Below, one piece after another: positions 13,341 to 40,817 of a DNA stretch of 64,000 nt; positions within the stretch are counted from its first letter, which is position 1; every line of letters starts with the position of its first letter. The stretch is from an uncultured virus (IMG/VR IMGVR_UViG_3300031951_000036). Its lineage: Duplodnaviria > Heunggongvirae > Uroviricota > Caudoviricetes. The stretch is from the IMG/VR virus record IMGVR_UViG_3300031951_000036. The stretch is one strand, 5' to 3'. A model generated the notes under the pieces. It did no database searches, was not told where the DNA came from, and saw only the letters and a program-made list of their open reading frames with translations. Made by a program: the position numbers and the translations under genes.

Positions 13341-13521
13341 AGGTTAGGTTGTTTCTTACTCTCAGATCCTTGTGCGTGAACTGCCACATCTCTCCTGTCT
13401 CATCAATTATTACCGTGTATACTGTATCCGTTTCATGTCCGTAGTCTGTCACTAGCCATACGACTCCTTTACCTTTAGGTGTGATTACCTCCAGGCGGTT
13501 GTGTGGTTCGTAGATCATCAT
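13315..13521 (-). CDS. Small hypothetical protein
   Basis: 68 aa, overlaps both neighbours. Confidence 0.55.
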   Translation of the reverse strand: MMIYEPHNRLEVITPKGKGVVWLVTDYGHETDTVYTVIIDETGEMWQFTHKDLRVRNNLTFGRHGKTI

Positions 13522-14189
13522 AGCAGCGTGACTTGTATTTGTTCATCCCGCTCTACCAGGTGATAGTACAGCTCTATATCAGCGCTCCACCCAGCTCCTG
13601 TCCAGAACTCAAAACCTTTGAACCCTGCCTTGTAGCGACAGCATTTCTCATAACCTCCCAGCAGATACACGTGCGTGCAGTGCAGCTGAGAAGCCAGATT
13701 GCATTCGTGCATTTGGGCAATGTTACCCAGCGACAGACCAGGATGTTCATAGTTGGATATGAACTGCATGGCCACAAACTGGTCATCATAGGTTTTGTAA
13801 AAACTTACACCGGCCAGCTTGTCATCGTGCCAATACTCAATACACTGGCAACCTTCAAAGTGTTCCCACTGTATATCCCTGGCAAATCCATGGTACGCAC
13901 AGTATTGCTCGTAAATTTTTTTGTATGCGTCCTGGTGCAGAATGAAATCACCAGGGCGGGCAGTCACCTTCTTACTCAGCCTTTTGACTGTTTCAGACGG
14001 ACGGTATAAGGAAAGGTCCAGGCGTACACTGCGCAGGTTATACCATTCAGAACCCCAAGGGATCCACCCTTCTTTGAGTGCATCCGCGCCAGATTCTCCT
14101 GGCTCCAGGATTCCATAGGGCGCGGAGTAGATAAAGTCTAAGTCAGAGACCTTACCAAAACCTTCTATGTGGTCAAAGTGCACTTTCAC
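13518..14189 (-). CDS. ATE1/Bpt-like aminoacyl-tRNA--protein transferase (GNAT-like fold)
   Basis: RSVRLDLSLYRPS, IEYWHDDKLAGVS, LSLG...HVYLLGGYEKCCRYKAGF match the ATE C-terminal pattern; GTGA/ATGA overlaps with neighbours. Confidence 0.65.
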   Translation of the reverse strand: MKVHFDHIEGFGKVSDLDFIYSAPYGILEPGESGADALKEGWIPWGSEWYNLRSVRLDLSLYRPSETVKRLSKKVTARPGDFILHQDAYKKIYEQYCAYHGFARDIQWEHFEGCQCIEYWHDDKLAGVSFYKTYDDQFVAMQFISNYEHPGLSLGNIAQMHECNLASQLHCTHVYLLGGYEKCCRYKAGFKGFEFWTGAGWSADIELYYHLVERDEQIQVTLL

Positions 14190-21986: not shown

Positions 21987-22319
21987 ATGCAGATTGCAAA
22001 TCGTATGTACTCAAGTACTTGGGGCTTGTACAAAGGCTGTGTAGCCTACGAACACTGGGGTCATAAGACCTTGTATGTGTTCAAAGACGTTTCCCCCAAA
22101 CGTCTGAAGGAGCGTAATGTTATCTCCAAGTGGGGTCATTACAAGGTGAAGTATGTATCCAATGCACAACTGTTAGAGATGGACTACTTTCATGATATCA
22201 AGGCGGTTGTCTTTGATGGTAAGCTTGGGACAGGATACACCACCCCTTCTTCCTCAGGTTCATACCTTTTTTGCAAGCGCAAAGATGGGCCTGAACCCAC
22301 ACCCCGTGCACGTCGGTAA
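21987..22319 (+). CDS. Hypothetical protein
   Basis: 110 aa after AACCCTTAAA leader. Confidence 0.55.
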   Translation: MQIANRMYSSTWGLYKGCVAYEHWGHKTLYVFKDVSPKRLKERNVISKWGHYKVKYVSNAQLLEMDYFHDIKAVVFDGKLGTGYTTPSSSGSYLFCKRKDGPEPTPRARR

Positions 22320-22364
22320 GTGCATGGGGTTTTTTGCTAATACTACATCGCATTTAAGATACGT

Positions 22365-22558
22365 TCCGCAACATACAGCGGATAGTGTGTCCTACATGAT
22401 GAGAAACGGGGTGATGCCCGTATGGATTTGCTGACATGACAAGGTTATGTTAGGGTGACAACCTGCCGTTTAGTCTATTCCTAACCCTGACAATCTCTAA
22501 CAGACTGCTGAGACAGGGGACAGCCAGGACGCTTGCAAGTTGGATAGCATAGAGCGTT
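22365..22558 (+). ncRNA. Ornate structured RNA, copy 1
   Basis: Colinear with 40284-40495, with compensatory stem changes and invariant blocks. Confidence 0.75.
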
Positions 22559-22705
22559 ATAATATTAGGCCGTTTGACCCGCATGTGGGGAGGTCAAGAC
22601 TCATAACTGGATATGCTCGGTTATGTCGCGCTGAAGACAGAGCGCAAGGGGGACAGATAAAGTTCCCCCTAAATCTGTCGAAGTTTAACTCTTAATACCA
22701 CAACC

Positions 22706-22936
22706 ATGAGTAAGTTCATCGTGTTCAACACCCAGAAACAGGCAGAGCATTGGGTCAAGTTTCAAAATACCATTGTGAATAAGCAATTGGAGCTTTGGCA
22801 AGACTCTGAAGCATTTGCCTATTTCAAGTTGAGTTCCAAGAACCGTGTTGTCTACGTCAGTGGATGGCAGTGTGGCTGTGGATGCGATCAGGGGAACACC
22901 TCTGTGAGCGTAGTCGGGCGCTATAAACGCGCCTGA
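22706..22936 (+). CDS. Hypothetical protein
   Basis: 76 aa, CGCGC motif. Confidence 0.5.
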   Translation: MSKFIVFNTQKQAEHWVKFQNTIVNKQLELWQDSEAFAYFKLSSKNRVVYVSGWQCGCGCDQGNTSVSVVGRYKRA

Positions 22937-22968
22937 CTTTTACTTTGTAAACCCTTAAACCCTACGAT

Positions 22969-38766: not shown

Positions 38767-39234
38767 ATGAACACCACACTGAAGCGCGCCCTCTATCTAG
38801 ATGATGTGCGCACCCCAACTGTTACCCTGGAAGGCTTTGCGCCATTTGCAGTGGTAAGAAACTATGACCAATTTGTCGGGCACATCCAGTCTCATGGAGT
38901 GCCTGACCTCATATCCTTTGACCATGACCTGGCTGATGAGCACATGATGGATTACTTTACCCATCAGGCTAATGGCATTGCCGTGGTTGAGTATGATAAG
39001 TTTACTGAGAAGACAGGCCTTGATTGCATCAAGTGGCTGTGTAACTACATCCTTGATGAGCATGAAAAAGGCAATACTATTCCTATGCCTGCTGTGCGCG
39101 TGCATAGCCATAATCCTGTGGGTGGTGCGAACATACATAACTATGCAAATAATTTTTGCGCATCCATGGGTTGGCCTGCTGCTGCTAGTTTTCTGAGAGT
39201 TCCCTTTGAGATAGCAACACAGGTAGACGAATAG
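38767..39234 (+). CDS. Cyclic-phosphate-processing receiver-like domain protein
   Basis: LYLDDVRTP, ISFDHDL, TGLDCIKWL, VHSHNPVG. Confidence 0.7.
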   Translation: MNTTLKRALYLDDVRTPTVTLEGFAPFAVVRNYDQFVGHIQSHGVPDLISFDHDLADEHMMDYFTHQANGIAVVEYDKFTEKTGLDCIKWLCNYILDEHEKGNTIPMPAVRVHSHNPVGGANIHNYANNFCASMGWPAAASFLRVPFEIATQVDE

Positions 39235-39250
39235 GTGTAGCGCTACGCCC

Positions 39251-39324
39251 GCGTCCATAGCTCAATTGGCTAGAGCAGTGGTCTCCAAAACCACAGGTTC
39301 CAGGTTCGAATCCTGGTGGGCGTG
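39251..39324 (+). tRNA. tRNA-Trp(CCA)
   Basis: GTGGT-CTCCAAA-ACCAC anticodon arm; CCAGG-TTCGAAT-CCTGG; G73. Confidence 0.9.
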
Positions 39325-39348
39325 CAACAATGTTCTTTGACAATATAT

Positions 39349-39922
39349 TCTTTCAAGTGTATGATCTAACGTGATCACGCGTGTGCTGGCACATAGACCA
39401 GATGTGGGGAGCGGTTCTCACAGTTCAACGTACTCTTTATCTAGTATGCGCTATATCCGCAGAACCATCATTGAGTGCTTTCCCAGCCGCAGGGTAGAAC
39501 AATCAGCGGTCAGACTTGACAAAACATTTGAAAGATGAAATTAAGGAGTGAGCATAAAAGACCACATGCAGAATGTAACGGCCAGTTTCTAGAGAGCGCC
39601 TATTCACTAGTATGTTTCTGTGCGATTGCATGCAATATCTCCTCAGGTTTATACATGGCTAACAACAATGGTAGAGCTATACCAAAGCTGGTGTGATTAG
39701 CCAGTCGGCTCCACGTGAACGCTAAATTACAGAGATCACAGCCAGAGAAATAACGCGCCCATTGGGAGAACTAAAAGGCGTCTATCTCACGTTGTTACCC
39801 ATGTACAGGCTTACCCGCAATACAGAGTGTCTGTCAGAGTTGCTACTGACAACCCCAGTTGAGGAATACTCTCCGTAAGGACGTCTACTCGGAGTGACGT
39901 ATAGCACTGGGTTCTGTATTGC
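39349..39922 (+). ncRNA. Array of stem-closed structured RNA modules (or one large ncRNA)
   Basis: ORF-free; closing helices of 12 bp, 14/15 bp and 10 bp. Confidence 0.6.
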
Positions 39923-39929
39923 ACACATT

Positions 39930-40051
39930 AGTCAGGTGGCGGAATGGTAGACGCTTCCTTTATCACAAGGAATAATTGGATAGTGATATATCCTAACATA
40001 AAAGATGTTGATGAAAGTCCTTCTTTACAGGTTCGAATCCTGTCCTGACTA
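39930..40051 (+). ncRNA. tRNA-like RNA with anticodon arm replaced by three hairpins
   Basis: AGTCAGG/CCTGACT acceptor, Leu-type D arm, ACAGG-TTCGAAT-CCTGT; loops TATCAC and GTGATA are complementary. Confidence 0.75.
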
Positions 40052-40182
40052 CGAATGTGGTTCGACTCCACTCGTTTACTGAGGTTGTGGTAAGTAGGTG
40101 TGCCAAAGTTCGAGCCTTTGGGTCTAGAAATAGATGATGGTAGACACGAACAGTATGACAGCTTGGAAAGACAAGCAAGCAT

Positions 40183-40278
40183 AGCACAGTGGTGAAATTG
40201 GTTCACACAAGTCAGTGGAGTAATTCCCAACGGTAAAAAAAGATACTTGTGATACAGGTTCAAATCCTGTCTGTGCTA
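40183..40278 (+). ncRNA. tRNA-like RNA with oversized anticodon loop
   Basis: AGCACAG/CTGTGCT acceptor, D arm, ACAAGT/ACTTGT stem enclosing >30 nt, T arm ACAGG-TTCAAAT-CCTGT. Confidence 0.7.
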
Positions 40279-40283
40279 CGGGC

Positions 40284-40495
40284 TCTGCTTCACTTGCAGA
40301 TAATGTGTCCAACATGAACAAACAGGGTAGTGCCTGTATGGAATTGCTGATAGACCAAAGGTCTATTTAGATTGACTATCTACTGAAAGGGGACTAAACA
40401 GTAACCCATCAAGTCTATTCCTAACCTCTGCGTCTAACAGACTGCGGACAAAGAGGGACAACCGCGATATCTGTAGCTGGATAATGCAGGGTATC
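40284..40495 (+). ncRNA. Ornate structured RNA, copy 2
   Basis: Colinear with 22365-22558. Confidence 0.75.
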
Positions 40496-40499
40496 ATTT

Positions 40500-40581
40500 G
40501 GCCATGTGGTGGAATTGGTAGACACACACGTCTCAGAAGCGTGTATCTCACGATGTGCAGGTTCGACTCCTGTCATGGTCA
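40500..40581 (+). tRNA. tRNA-Leu(CAG)
   Basis: GGCCATG/CATGGTC, CACGT-CTCAGAA-GCGTG, variable arm, T arm. Confidence 0.9.
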
Positions 40582-40583
40582 CA

Positions 40584-40817
40584 ATGAAAAAGTGTTTTTA
40601 CTGTGAGCGCAAGCTTCCGCTGTTCATGTACGCATTGAACAGACGGCAGTACCAGCGCCCTGAAGATAAGGGCCGGTGCAAATCATGTCACATCTGCAAC
40701 TACAAGTACTGGTCTGACCAGGGCTTTGCGTGGTTGCTCAATATCAACACGGGAAAGTTTGAACGTGTTGAGTTTAAATCTAAGTTGGACATTATCAGAA
40801 AAATCTTATGGATGTAA
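40584..40817 (+). CDS. Zn-finger protein
   Basis: CFYC ... CHIC; ATG 40584 just after tRNA. Confidence 0.55.
   Translation: MKKCFYCERKLPLFMYALNRRQYQRPEDKGRCKSCHICNYKYWSDQGFAWLLNINTGKFERVEFKSKLDIIRKILWM

What the first reader, a model, noticed from the sequence alone, without database searches (positions are those of the whole stretch)
40284..40495. Ornate RNA copy 2 fills the gap between a tRNA-like RNA and tRNA-Leu
Seen: starts 5 nt after the 40183-40278 element and ends 4 nt before tRNA-Leu, with an expanded internal arm (TAGATTGA/TCAAGTCTA enclosing TACTG/CAGTA) relative to copy 1. Inference: tRNA processing would release it as a discrete RNA, or it acts in tRNA processing. The variable arm marks a peripheral, non-core region.
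Basis: partly seen in the sequence, partly recalled or inferred. Interest (0 to 1): 0.8.

Follow-up and report, generated by a model that had tools for sequence, protein, structure and literature searches.

The report
New folded RNA in phage tRNA arrays
The stretch between a tRNA look-alike and tRNA-Leu encodes one member of a large, uncatalogued family of tightly folded ~200-nt RNAs that many unrelated uncultured phages keep wedged between tRNA genes; what the RNA does is still unknown.

Summary
Window 40279-40499 (+) is a real structured RNA. It lies 0 nt from tRNA-Leu and 0-2 nt from a tRNA-like element. A paralogue lies at 22362-22562.

It is not a private oddity. A covariance model built here found it in 94 of 96 IMG/VR loci fetched by one motif scan, giving 64 distinct sequences of 179-256 nt. 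The carriers include crAss-like phages and unrelated phages of 64-335 kb, usually with one copy per genome.

Across the 64 sequences, 37 of 43 base pairs change on both sides. Two pseudoknots covary although neither was in the model.

No Rfam 15 family matches. No match was found in 50,697 GenBank phage records, and no description in the papers searched.

46 of the 64 distinct RNAs abut a tRNA or a tRNA-type T-arm on at least one side, and 13 sit flush between two called tRNAs of varied identity.

Two details need correction. The "expanded arm" is an optional module that copy 1 lacks.

Function is unknown. My best guess is a stable trans-acting RNA in the phage's tRNA and translation conflict with its host.

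The parts
40183..40278 (+). tRNA-like element with intact acceptor stem and T-arm but a 31-nt insertion in place of a normal anticodon loop; proposed 5' processing handle
   Evidence: Rfam tRNA match at 48.9 bits; ARAGORN does not call it. Its orthologues are called with odd anticodons: 4-base 'gggt' in L141 and Tyr(ata) in L128.
40279..40499 (+). Full RNA unit (copy 2) between the two tRNA-type boundaries
   Evidence: Model R1 match at 40281-40499, 219.5 bits, E 4e-70; z -3.84.
40284..40300 (+). P1 hairpin (UCUGC / GCAGA)
   Evidence: 5 of 5 pairs change on both sides across 64 sequences.
40303..40315 (+). P2 hairpin; loop nucleotides 40308-40310 (UCC) form pseudoknot PK1 with 40340-40342 (GGA)
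   Evidence: PK1 pairs: column 32-75 is CG 32, UA 26, UG 4, other 1; column 34-71 is CG 54, UA 6, AU 3; column 33-74 is CG 61, UG 2. PK1 was not part of the search model.
40322..40337 (+). P3 hairpin (ACAGG / CCUGU)
   Evidence: 5 of 5 pairs change on both sides.
40338..40343 (+). Strand AUGGAA carrying the 3' side of PK1
40350..40366 (+). P5 hairpin (AUAGACC / GGUCUAU)
   Evidence: 7 of 7 pairs change on both sides.
40368..40382 (+). P6 local hairpin (UAGAU / AUCUA); loop GAC 40374-40376 pairs with GUC 40413-40415 (pseudoknot PK3)
   Evidence: Stem variants are listed. PK3: 47 of 63 sequences have an exact complement in a hairpin loop, against 23.1 +/- 3.4 for shuffled tails (0 of 2000 as high). 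The other 16 fit with G-U pairs or a shorter stem.
40382..40408 (+). Optional module that copy 1 lacks: stem ACUG/CAGU (40382-85 with 40399-402). Its loop GGGG (40389-92) probably pairs with CCC (40405-07), called PK2 here.
   Evidence: The module is absent, short or long in different members. GGGG/CCC is replaced by GAGA/UCUC in the rows labelled L219 and L207. This was read by eye, with no formal count.
40412..40426 (+). Nearly invariant strand AGUCUAUUCCUAACC. GUC is in PK3, the final CC opens P7, and UAUUCCUAA has no supported partner.
   Evidence: U340 and C342 are kept in at least 62 of 63 sequences without being forced by the search pattern; UAACC was forced by the pattern. The first guess of a GGAAU/AUUCC helix failed: 74% of cells paired and no pair changed on both sides.
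40425..40456 (+). P7 (CCUCU / AGAGG) with an insertion seen only in the window's near relatives. In other members P7 is a short hairpin.
   Evidence: 3 of 5 pairs change on both sides. My rough parse finds a GNRA loop in 20 of 64 sequences.
40455..40463 (+). Invariant GGGACA followed by ACC
   Evidence: Invariant in the 13 distinct sequences found without using it as a pattern; later scans forced it.
40466..40495 (+). P8 hairpin with the conserved loop containing UGGAUA
   Evidence: 6 of 7 pairs change on both sides. In the stand-alone member L162, P8 is followed by a U run like an intrinsic terminator.
40500..40582 (+). tRNA-Leu(CAG); its 5' end would set the 3' end of the RNA through RNase P
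   Evidence: ARAGORN; Rfam 53.2 bits.
22362..22562 (+). Copy 1, a stand-alone paralogue without flanking tRNAs and without the optional module
   Evidence: Model R1, 207 bits. It lies after a terminator-like site at 22301-22330. Metatranscriptome contigs of two studies begin at 22368 and 22378.

Best explanation
Window 40279-40499 encodes one member of a previously uncatalogued family of compact, multiply pseudoknotted RNAs of about 200 nt. Many unrelated uncultured phages carry it, mostly inside their tRNA gene arrays.

Proposed mechanism. The RNA is transcribed as part of a tRNA / tRNA-like precursor. RNase P cuts at the 5' end of the downstream tRNA-Leu and makes the RNA's 3' end. The tRNA 3'-end pathway cuts just after the upstream tRNA-like element and makes its 5' end; an RNase Z-type cut is plausible because no CCA is encoded. 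The freed RNA folds into a globular structure: hairpins P1, P2, P3, P5, P6, P7 and P8, locked by PK1 (P2 loop with the strand after P3) and PK3 (P6 loop with the strand before UAUUCC). It then acts in trans as a stable RNA.

Its nearly invariant unpaired strands (AUAGU, GA..AGAA, UAUUCCUAA, GGGACA, and the P8 loop with UGGAUA) would form the working surface. I think the most likely role is binding or mimicking a component of the tRNA/translation machinery during the phage-host conflict. That last step is a guess.

What is shown and what is inferred. Shown: the family, the fold, and the tRNA-flush boundaries. Inferred: the cutting enzymes and trans action. Speculative: the cellular role.
For: Real, conserved RNA:
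- Model R1 matches both window copies (219.5 and 207 bits) and 94 of 96 IMG/VR loci from one motif scan.
- That gives 64 distinct sequences, 179-256 nt, median 199.

Fold:
- On the 64 sequences, 95.8% of cells pair, against 33-48% when partners are slid.
- 37 of 43 pairs change on both sides, against 12-17 when slid; 0 of 500 shuffles reach the observed values.
- PK1 and PK3 were not in the model and still covary.
- Many G-U pairs (for example 25 at column pair 26-39 and 54 at 422-440) would be A-C mismatches on the other strand. So the + strand, the tRNA strand, is the RNA.

Release by tRNA processing:
- 46 of 64 distinct RNAs have a tRNA or T-arm-type motif on at least one side, and 13 are flush between two called tRNAs.
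- Upstream gaps are 1 nt in 18 of 19 cases. Downstream gaps are -1 to +2 nt in 17 cases.
- Orthologues of copy 2 in three related records keep the order tRNA-like, RNA, tRNA-Leu.
- Flanking elements are often mere tRNA shells, with acceptor stem and T-arm but a non-tRNA interior. That fits a role as processing signals.

Autonomy:
- 28 of 29 whole phage records hold one copy.
- Carriers include one crAss-type capsid record and four records of 162-311 kb without it.

Context:
- A cREC (cyclic-phosphate-processing) protein lies just upstream in the window.
- cREC (5 loci), metallophosphoesterase (6) and an AAA_33 kinase (5) recur within 7 kb in the 31 neighbourhoods compared. A PolyA_pol-head (CCA-adding-like) protein and a YqeY protein also turned up nearby.
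- Passages of PMC7824862 link cREC to RNA-end repair.

Not catalogued:
- No Rfam 15 match at E up to 10 for either window copy, nor at E up to 1 for 8 diverse members.
Against: - No experiment or read-level end mapping supports the cuts. The only RNA data were assembled contigs, which cannot show ends or strand.
- 17 of 64 members, including copy 1, have no tRNA or T-arm on either side, so tRNA processing cannot be the only way the ends are made.
- RNA contigs from two studies run from the 5' edge of copy 1 through the next small ORF to about 22893-22908. That would equally fit a 5' leader.
- No conserved protein partner was found nearby.
- The T-arm test is a loose regular expression, and at least one of its hits (copy 1, +29) looks spurious.
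- All homologues were found through exact motifs, so the invariance of UAACC, GGGACA and UGGAUA is partly built in. The nested helices were counted on alignments fitted to the model.
- The related complete phage G002 (125,760 bp) lacks the RNA, so it is dispensable.
- The host is unknown.
Confidence: 0.6

Rival explanations
1. Cis-acting helper of tRNA maturation: the RNA stays in the precursor and guides or times the processing or expression of the adjacent tRNAs.
For: It abuts tRNAs in a fixed register. tRNA-end and RNA-repair enzymes recur nearby.
Against: - There is one copy per genome, although arrays hold several tRNAs.
- The neighbouring tRNA identity is not conserved.
- 17 of 64 members have no tRNA at either side, copy 1 included.
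- The fold is far more elaborate than known leaders or spacers.
Confidence: 0.1
2. Cis-regulatory leader (riboswitch-like) that controls the genes downstream.
For: RNA contigs from two studies start at the 5' edge of copy 1 and run through ORF 22706-22936 towards a terminator-like site at 22912-22938. Copy 2 is followed by tRNA-Leu and then an ORF starting 4 nt later.
Against: - Most members lie between tRNAs, with no conserved downstream gene.
- No expression platform was seen. In the relative L145, the sequence right after copy 1 is entirely different.
- In L162 the RNA lies at the 3' end of a small ORF, and P8 itself looks like the terminator.
Confidence: 0.07
3. A new ribozyme, self-cleaving or otherwise catalytic, with the invariant junction strands forming an active site.
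For: Two covarying pseudoknots lock a compact fold. Unpaired nucleotides are nearly invariant, and P7 carries a GNRA loop in 20 of 64 sequences by my rough parse. Stand-alone members still need some way to define their ends.
Against: No match to any ribozyme family in Rfam 15. Ends are already explained by tRNA processing in most members. No conserved cleavage-site signature was identified.
Confidence: 0.1
4. Decayed tRNA genes or functionless spacer that merely folds by chance.
For: It lies among degenerate tRNA-like elements.
Against: 37 of 43 pairs change on both sides across 64 sequences from unrelated phages. No tRNA model matches inside 40284-40495 at E up to 10.
Confidence: 0.01

Closest known systems
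GOLLD and ROOL RNAs (large ornate RNAs of phages and prophages)
   Same: Encoded by phages, often near tRNA islands. GOLLD env-38 lies downstream of a Met-tRNA, and tRNAs can sit inside GOLLD (passages of PMC12286853). Both have elaborate pseudoknotted folds and unknown function.
   Different: No match to their Rfam models at E up to 10. This RNA is about 200 nt, against about 580 nt for ROOL (recalled) and over 800 nt for many GOLLD members. It has a different secondary structure. Nothing is known about multimer formation here.
Phage T4 RNAC and RNAD (small stable RNAs, species 1 and 2)
   Same: Small phage RNAs of still unknown function (passage of PMC9697503). That they lie in the T4 tRNA cluster and are matured with the tRNAs is recalled, not seen in a call.
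   Different: No sequence likeness: blastn of the window's 1.4-kb RNA island and of three other members against 50,697 GenBank phage records gave only tRNA hits or nothing. Sizes differ; about 120-140 nt for T4 is recalled.
tRNA punctuation (mitochondrial transcripts, MALAT1-mascRNA, engineered gRNA-tRNA arrays)
   Same: RNase P and RNase Z cuts at tRNA or tRNA-like elements free the RNAs lying between them. The tRNA shells here would play the part of the punctuation marks. The principle is recalled; PMC8348895 and PMC10218229 were seen only as search listings.
   Different: Here the system is a bacteriophage, the released product is a conserved non-coding RNA, and the processing itself is inferred rather than shown.
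Other uncatalogued RNA families in phage tRNA arrays noted earlier in this scan
   Same: Same niche and same state of knowledge: folded RNAs between phage tRNA genes, absent from Rfam, function unknown. These are AI notes, used only as leads.
   Different: Look-ups by sequence with copy 2 and two other members found no look-alike among them. This appears to be a separate family.

Membership tests
tRNA (Rfam RF00005) | Match to the tRNA covariance model / cloverleaf with anticodon arm | tested here: not met
   No tRNA match inside 40284-40495 at E up to 10; only the flanks match. ARAGORN calls nothing there.
GOLLD / ROOL | Match to the family covariance model in Rfam 15 | tested here: not met
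   cmscan at E up to 10 on both copies and at E up to 1 on 8 diverse members: no such match.
GOLLD / ROOL | Phage-encoded and near tRNA islands | tested here: met
   The property of GOLLD/ROOL is taken from passages of PMC12286853.
GOLLD / ROOL | Homo-oligomeric cage formation | not testable with these tools
   Needs cryo-EM or native gels.
Other stable RNAs found in or near tRNA clusters (tmRNA, RNase P RNA, Y-RNA-like, 6S, SRP RNA) | Match to the Rfam model, or an ARAGORN tmRNA call | tested here: not met
   None listed at E up to 10. ARAGORN finds no tmRNA in the window. The one weak tmRNA-model hit in L248 (E 2e-4, 18.7 bits against a cut-off of 47) lies on the flanking tRNA-like stretch.
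Known self-cleaving ribozymes (hammerhead, twister, pistol, hatchet, HDV-like and others) | Match to the Rfam model | tested here: not met
Known self-cleaving ribozymes | Self-cleavage activity | not testable with these tools
   Needs an in vitro assay.
Riboswitch / cis-regulatory leader | Conserved downstream gene and an expression platform | tested here: not met
   Downstream neighbours are tRNAs of varied identity or unrelated ORFs. The sequence after copy 1 is replaced in L145.
T4 RNAC / RNAD | Sequence likeness to the T4 RNAs | tested here: not met
   No non-tRNA match in 50,697 phage records.
tRNA-punctuated RNA (what it works like, not a sequence family) | Boundaries coincide with tRNA 5' and 3' ends | tested here: met
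   Copy 2 lies 0 nt from tRNA-Leu and 0-2 nt from the tRNA-like element. 13 of 64 members are flush on both sides and 46 of 64 on at least one side.
tRNA-punctuated RNA | Cleavage by RNase P and RNase Z at those boundaries | not testable with these tools
   Only assembled RNA contigs were available.

The most novel reading that the evidence does not exclude
The RNA is a new functional class: either a ribozyme, or a structured decoy or mimic aimed at a tRNA- or ribosome-directed host system. Unrelated aquatic phages would exchange it as a cassette. The many tRNA shells around it (acceptor stem and T-arm, foreign interior) would be a natural version of the engineered tRNA scaffold, letting phages express, cut out and stabilise non-tRNA RNA cargo with host RNase P and RNase Z.
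Probability: 0.2. Interest if true: 0.85.

Novelty: new variant of a known kind. Interest (0 to 1): 0.62.

Why it matters
Phage tRNA islands are known to hold a few enigmatic RNAs (GOLLD, ROOL, T4 RNAC/RNAD), and none has a known function. This adds a well-defined family: 64 distinct sequences, a fold with two covarying pseudoknots, sharp tRNA-defined ends, and a size (~200 nt) that suits structure determination and biochemistry.

The family occurs in unrelated phages with genomes from 64 kb to 335 kb, yet in none of the 50,697 GenBank phage records searched (INPHARED). That points to a transferable accessory function in uncultured, probably freshwater, phages that cultured models have missed.

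The flush tRNA and tRNA-shell flanks also give a concrete, testable case of tRNA punctuation being used by phages to make non-tRNA RNAs.

Tried and rejected
- **First helix guess.** A GGAAU/AUUCC helix (my first P4) was rejected: 74% of cells paired and no pair changed on both sides. The GG covaries with the P2 loop instead (PK1).
- **First pseudoknot guess.** GUCC with GGAC of GGGACA, also proposed by RNAalifold, was rejected. The loop changes to GCCU, AUCC or GUCA while GGGACA stays invariant.
In one search my 'distal' control was one base out of register, so I do not use its numbers. My first PK3 script was too permissive (63 of 63, uninformative) and was replaced.
- **'TCTAACAGACTGC' as a core motif** was rejected. 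It is an insertion in P7 seen only in the window's near relatives.
- **Motif scans that found only chance hits or the same close relatives:** (4 of 7 chance hits; 4 of 7 chance hits; 0 of 9 new loci match the model). The genome-contig scan used a pattern specific to the window's subtype, so it says nothing about bacteria or prophages for the family as a whole.
- **K-turn or box C/D reading** of AUGAUGAG with CUGA was rejected. CUGA is not conserved, and the weak snoRNA hits are far below threshold.
- **11-nt GNRA-receptor reading** of UAUGG with CCUAA (motif recalled) was rejected, because the GG covaries with the P2 loop.
- **A conserved neighbouring protein partner:** none was found in the 31 neighbourhoods compared.
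- **RNA runs**: contigs only, so there is no statement on the ends, strand or level of copy 2. Parts without cover are not interpreted.
- **Earlier-findings look-ups** by place and by sequence were empty.
- **Host assignment** was not achieved. The crAss-type capsid and one TTTG...TAnnTTTG-like promoter motif seen by eye in L162 (consensus recalled) hint at Bacteroidota, no more.

Full report
**1. The observation**

The window holds four ARAGORN tRNAs, among them tRNA-Trp at 39251-39325 and tRNA-Leu(CAG) at 40500-40582. Rfam adds a fifth tRNA-model match at 40183-40278: 48.9 bits, with acceptor stem, D-arm and T-arm intact but 31 nt where the 7-nt anticodon loop should be.

The finding (40284-40495) fills the gap between these two elements, leaving 5 nt and 4 nt. 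It folds better than all 200 dinucleotide shuffles (-64.6 against -49.4 +/- 3.95 kcal/mol, z -3.84).

That copy lies in a 385-nt gap between ORFs, just after a terminator-like site at 22301-22330. No Rfam 15 family matches either copy at E up to 10.

**2. From two copies to a family**

Exact scans with the longest shared blocks first gave only near-identical phages:
- G001 carries copy 1 unchanged.
- Two IMG/VR records (L123, L125) and one metagenome contig (L141) carry orthologues of copy 2, again between a tRNA-like element and tRNA-Leu.
- L145 carries a variant of copy 1 whose downstream flank is unrelated. This marks the 3' edge of the unit.

I built covariance model R1 from three of these sequences. 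Run over the 119 loci fetched by a bare 14-mer scan, it showed that this scan had also caught diverged homologues at 88-130 bits.

Two more specific scans followed:
- The first gave 34 loci, all matched by the model.
- The second gave 96 loci, of which 94 match at E up to 0.001.

Together with the window and two metagenome contigs this makes 98 matches and 64 distinct sequences, 179-256 nt long, median 199.

Distribution:
- In 29 phage records searched whole, 28 hold one copy and one holds two. The window holds two.
- The related complete phage G002 (125,760 bp, terminal repeats) has none.
- The window is a crAss-type phage by its capsid (PF23898). Of five other carriers tested, only one has that capsid; the other four are records of 162-311 kb.
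- Complete or near-complete carriers range from 64 kb to 335 kb.
- None of 50,697 GenBank phage records matches the window's RNA island beyond its tRNAs, or three other members at all.
- Eight diverse members have no Rfam match at E up to 1 apart from their flanking tRNAs.

I found no description in four literature searches. I read only listings and abstracts there, plus the passages named below.

**3. The fold**

On the 64 distinct sequences, 95.8% of cells form standard pairs, against 33-48% when the 3' partners are slid by 1-3 columns. 37 of 43 pairs change on both sides (12-17 when slid), and no shuffle of 500 reaches the observed values. Smaller sets gave the same picture: 13 of 47 pairs on 5 sequences and 24 of 44 on 18 sequences.

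One caveat applies. The nested helices were counted on alignments fitted to my model, which leans towards that structure.

Two pairings were not in the model and so are independent of it.
- **PK1** joins the P2 loop to the strand after P3. Column pair 32-75 is C-G in 32 sequences, U-A in 26 and U-G in 4. Pair 34-71 is C-G in 54, U-A in 6 and A-U in 3. It replaces my first guess of a GGAAU/AUUCC helix, which paired in only 74% of cells.
- **PK3** joins the loop of the local P6 hairpin to the three bases just 5' of UAUUCC. The combinations seen are GAC:GUC, AAC:GUU, GAU:AUC, AAU:AUU, GUC:GAC, AUC:GAU and GUU:AAC. An exact complement sits in a hairpin loop in 47 of 63 sequences, against 23.1 +/- 3.4 when the tails are shuffled (0 of 2000). 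The remaining 16 fit with a G-U pair (14, one of them the GAG:CUU case in L276) or a 3-bp stem that my filter missed (2).

The abundant G-U pairs fix the + strand as the RNA strand.

Bases kept in at least 62 of 63 sequences without being forced by my search patterns include U24, A25, U27 and U29 (the AUAGU stretch), G40 and A41, A47 and A48, A69, G74, and U340 and C342. UAACC, GGGACA and UGGAUA are invariant too, but the patterns required them. GGGACA and UGGAUA were already invariant in the 13 distinct sequences found by the 14-mer alone.

**4.

In copy 2 the stretch 40368-40411 has three parts:
- the P6 hairpin (40368-82);
- a stem ACUG/CAGU (40382-85 with 40399-402);
- a loop GGGG that probably pairs with CCC at 40405-07. 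The rows labelled L219 and L207 have GAGA/UCUC instead; I read this by eye.

The outer stem is not. Where its first base changes from U to C (for example L199, L207, L267), the change is matched in the local 3' strand and not in the invariant distal strand.

Across the family the module after P6 is absent (the rows labelled L237 and L273), short (copy 1, L125) or long (L219, L267). A second architecture of the whole central part also exists. The arm is indeed peripheral, but copy 1 is a short form rather than copy 2 an expansion.

**5. The tRNA connection**

For each of the 64 distinct RNAs I took the member with the longest flanks. I ran ARAGORN on it and applied a loose T-arm pattern.

| Side | Called tRNA | T-arm-type motif | Nothing | Flank too short |
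|---|---|---|---|---|
| Upstream | 19 (ends 1 nt before the RNA in 18, 3 nt in one) | 21 (ends 14 nt before in 20, 13 nt in one) | 23 | 1 |
| Downstream | 17 (starts at -1 to +2) | 13 (at +29 to +94) | 33 | 1 |

One downstream motif hit, copy 1's at +29, is probably spurious. 13 RNAs are flush between two called tRNAs, 46 have a tRNA-type element on at least one side, and 17 have none.

The tRNAs differ from case to case: Met, Asp, Arg, Ile, Glu or Ser upstream; Ser, Thr, Leu, Cys, Arg, Met or Glu downstream. Many flanks are tRNA shells that share acceptor and T-arm sequences but have foreign interiors. ARAGORN gives some of them unlikely anticodons such as AAA, AUG and AUA.

Boundaries that track tRNA ends to the nucleotide, whatever the tRNA, are what tRNA punctuation predicts. 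RNase P would make the RNA's 3' end, and the tRNA 3'-end pathway its 5' end. No CCA is encoded after the upstream elements, so an RNase Z-type cut is plausible. That last point rests on general knowledge of tRNA maturation, not on a test.

**6. Expression**

Six metatranscriptome runs hold parts of the island, and four were laid. They are assembled contigs, so they show neither ends nor strand.

Two runs from different studies yield contigs spanning 22368-22893 and 22378-22908. These start at the 5' edge of copy 1, just after the terminator-like site at 22301-22330, and stop just before another at 22912-22938. This stretch was not part of the query used to find the runs. It is a weak hint that copy 1 heads a transcript that also carries ORF 22706-22936. 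For copy 2 the contigs say only that the island is present in RNA libraries.

**7. Context**

The island at 39235-40585 has no convincing gene. Directly upstream lies a 155-aa protein with a cREC receiver domain. Iyer et al. propose this domain as a 2',3'-cyclic-phosphate-processing enzyme linked to RNA ligases (passages of PMC7824862).

I compared 31 neighbourhoods of +/-7 kb: 29 loci from other phage records plus the two window regions. Three families recur: cREC (5 loci), a metallophosphoesterase (6) and an AAA_33 kinase (5). A PolyA_pol-head protein, a YqeY-like protein and a Nudix protein also appear. No protein is shared by most loci.

This is the usual company of phage tRNA arrays. It fits a tRNA-centred conflict but proves nothing about the RNA.

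**8. Interpretation**

What is shown: a large RNA family, its fold with two covarying pseudoknots, its strand, and its tRNA-flush boundaries.

What is inferred: excision by RNase P and tRNA 3' processing, and action in trans as a stable RNA.

What is guessed: a role in the tRNA/translation conflict. The guess rests on the niche, on the repair enzymes nearby, and on a compact fold with invariant unpaired strands, as seen in ribozymes and in RNAs that bind proteins or ligands.

The rivals are a cis helper of tRNA maturation, a cis-regulatory leader, a ribozyme and junk. They are weighed in their own sections. The stand-alone members, copy 1 among them, count against any model that needs a neighbouring tRNA.

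**9. Comparison and novelty**

The closest known things share the niche, not the sequence:
- GOLLD and ROOL are phage RNAs, often near tRNA islands, of unknown function (passages of PMC12286853).
- T4 RNAC and RNAD are of unknown function (passage of PMC9697503). Their place in the T4 tRNA cluster is recalled.

The way copy 2 would be made resembles tRNA punctuation.

Earlier notes of this scan describe other uncatalogued RNA families in phage tRNA arrays. Look-ups by sequence find none like this one. Those notes are unchecked AI leads. They agree at the level of the class, and they lower the surprise a little.

I file this as a new family within a known but unexplained kind.

Noticed in passing
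window 39640-39928 (+): A second conserved structured RNA sits in the same island. It is kept with compensatory changes in L125 (1-175) and L126 (about 1140-1425) and has no Rfam match at E up to 10. Its 3' part (39858-39923) matches contigs of very high depth (150-513) in three metatranscriptomes. Those contigs continue into other flanks, so they come from a relative.
   Followed up: partly
window 39929-40053 (+); L126 1683-2285; flanks in L160, L163, L164: A family of tRNA shells shares the acceptor stem AGUCAGG/CCUGACU and a GGUUCGAAUCC T-arm but has widely different, often long interiors. L126 has four in a row. ARAGORN gives some of them unlikely anticodons (AAA, AUG). They flank the RNA in several unrelated phages.
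   Followed up: partly
window 40054-40182 (+): A 129-nt element between two tRNA-like shells has two T-arm-like hairpins (GUGGUUCGACUCCAC and CCAAAGUUCGAGCCUUUGG) and a D-arm-like stretch. It is conserved in L126 just before tRNA-Leu. Its nature is unknown.
   Followed up: no
window 38767-39234 (+): A cREC_REC (cyclic-phosphate-processing receiver) protein lies directly upstream of the RNA island. Homologues recur within 7 kb of the RNA in four other phage loci.
   Followed up: partly
window 39337-39365 (+): A near-consensus sigma-70-type promoter (TTGACA, 17 nt, TATGAT; 11 of 12) lies just after tRNA-Trp, at the head of the RNA island. The total number of promoter-like sites in the region is what shuffles give.
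   Followed up: no
window 40587-40817 (+): A 76-aa Cys-rich ORF (two CxxC pairs) starts 4 nt after tRNA-Leu. It is kept next to tRNA-Leu in relatives, including one at 49% identity that has no RNA island upstream (L129).
   Followed up: partly
window 13518-14189 (-): A protein with an arginine-tRNA-protein transferase C-terminal domain (ATE_C, E 2.5e-7) lies about 2 kb from phage tRNA-Tyr and tRNA-Met.
   Followed up: no
L296 (G012:C1:57059-72982): The only other record with two copies of the RNA holds them 1.7 kb apart. A TnpB-like protein (Cas12f1-like TNB domain) lies about 730 nt from the nearer copy.
   Followed up: no
L162 1400-1760: In the most widespread member (identical RNA in 13 contigs) the RNA follows a small membrane-like ORF, and its last hairpin is followed by a U run like an intrinsic terminator. 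A TTTG ... TAnnTTTG-like promoter motif lies upstream (consensus recalled).
   Followed up: no
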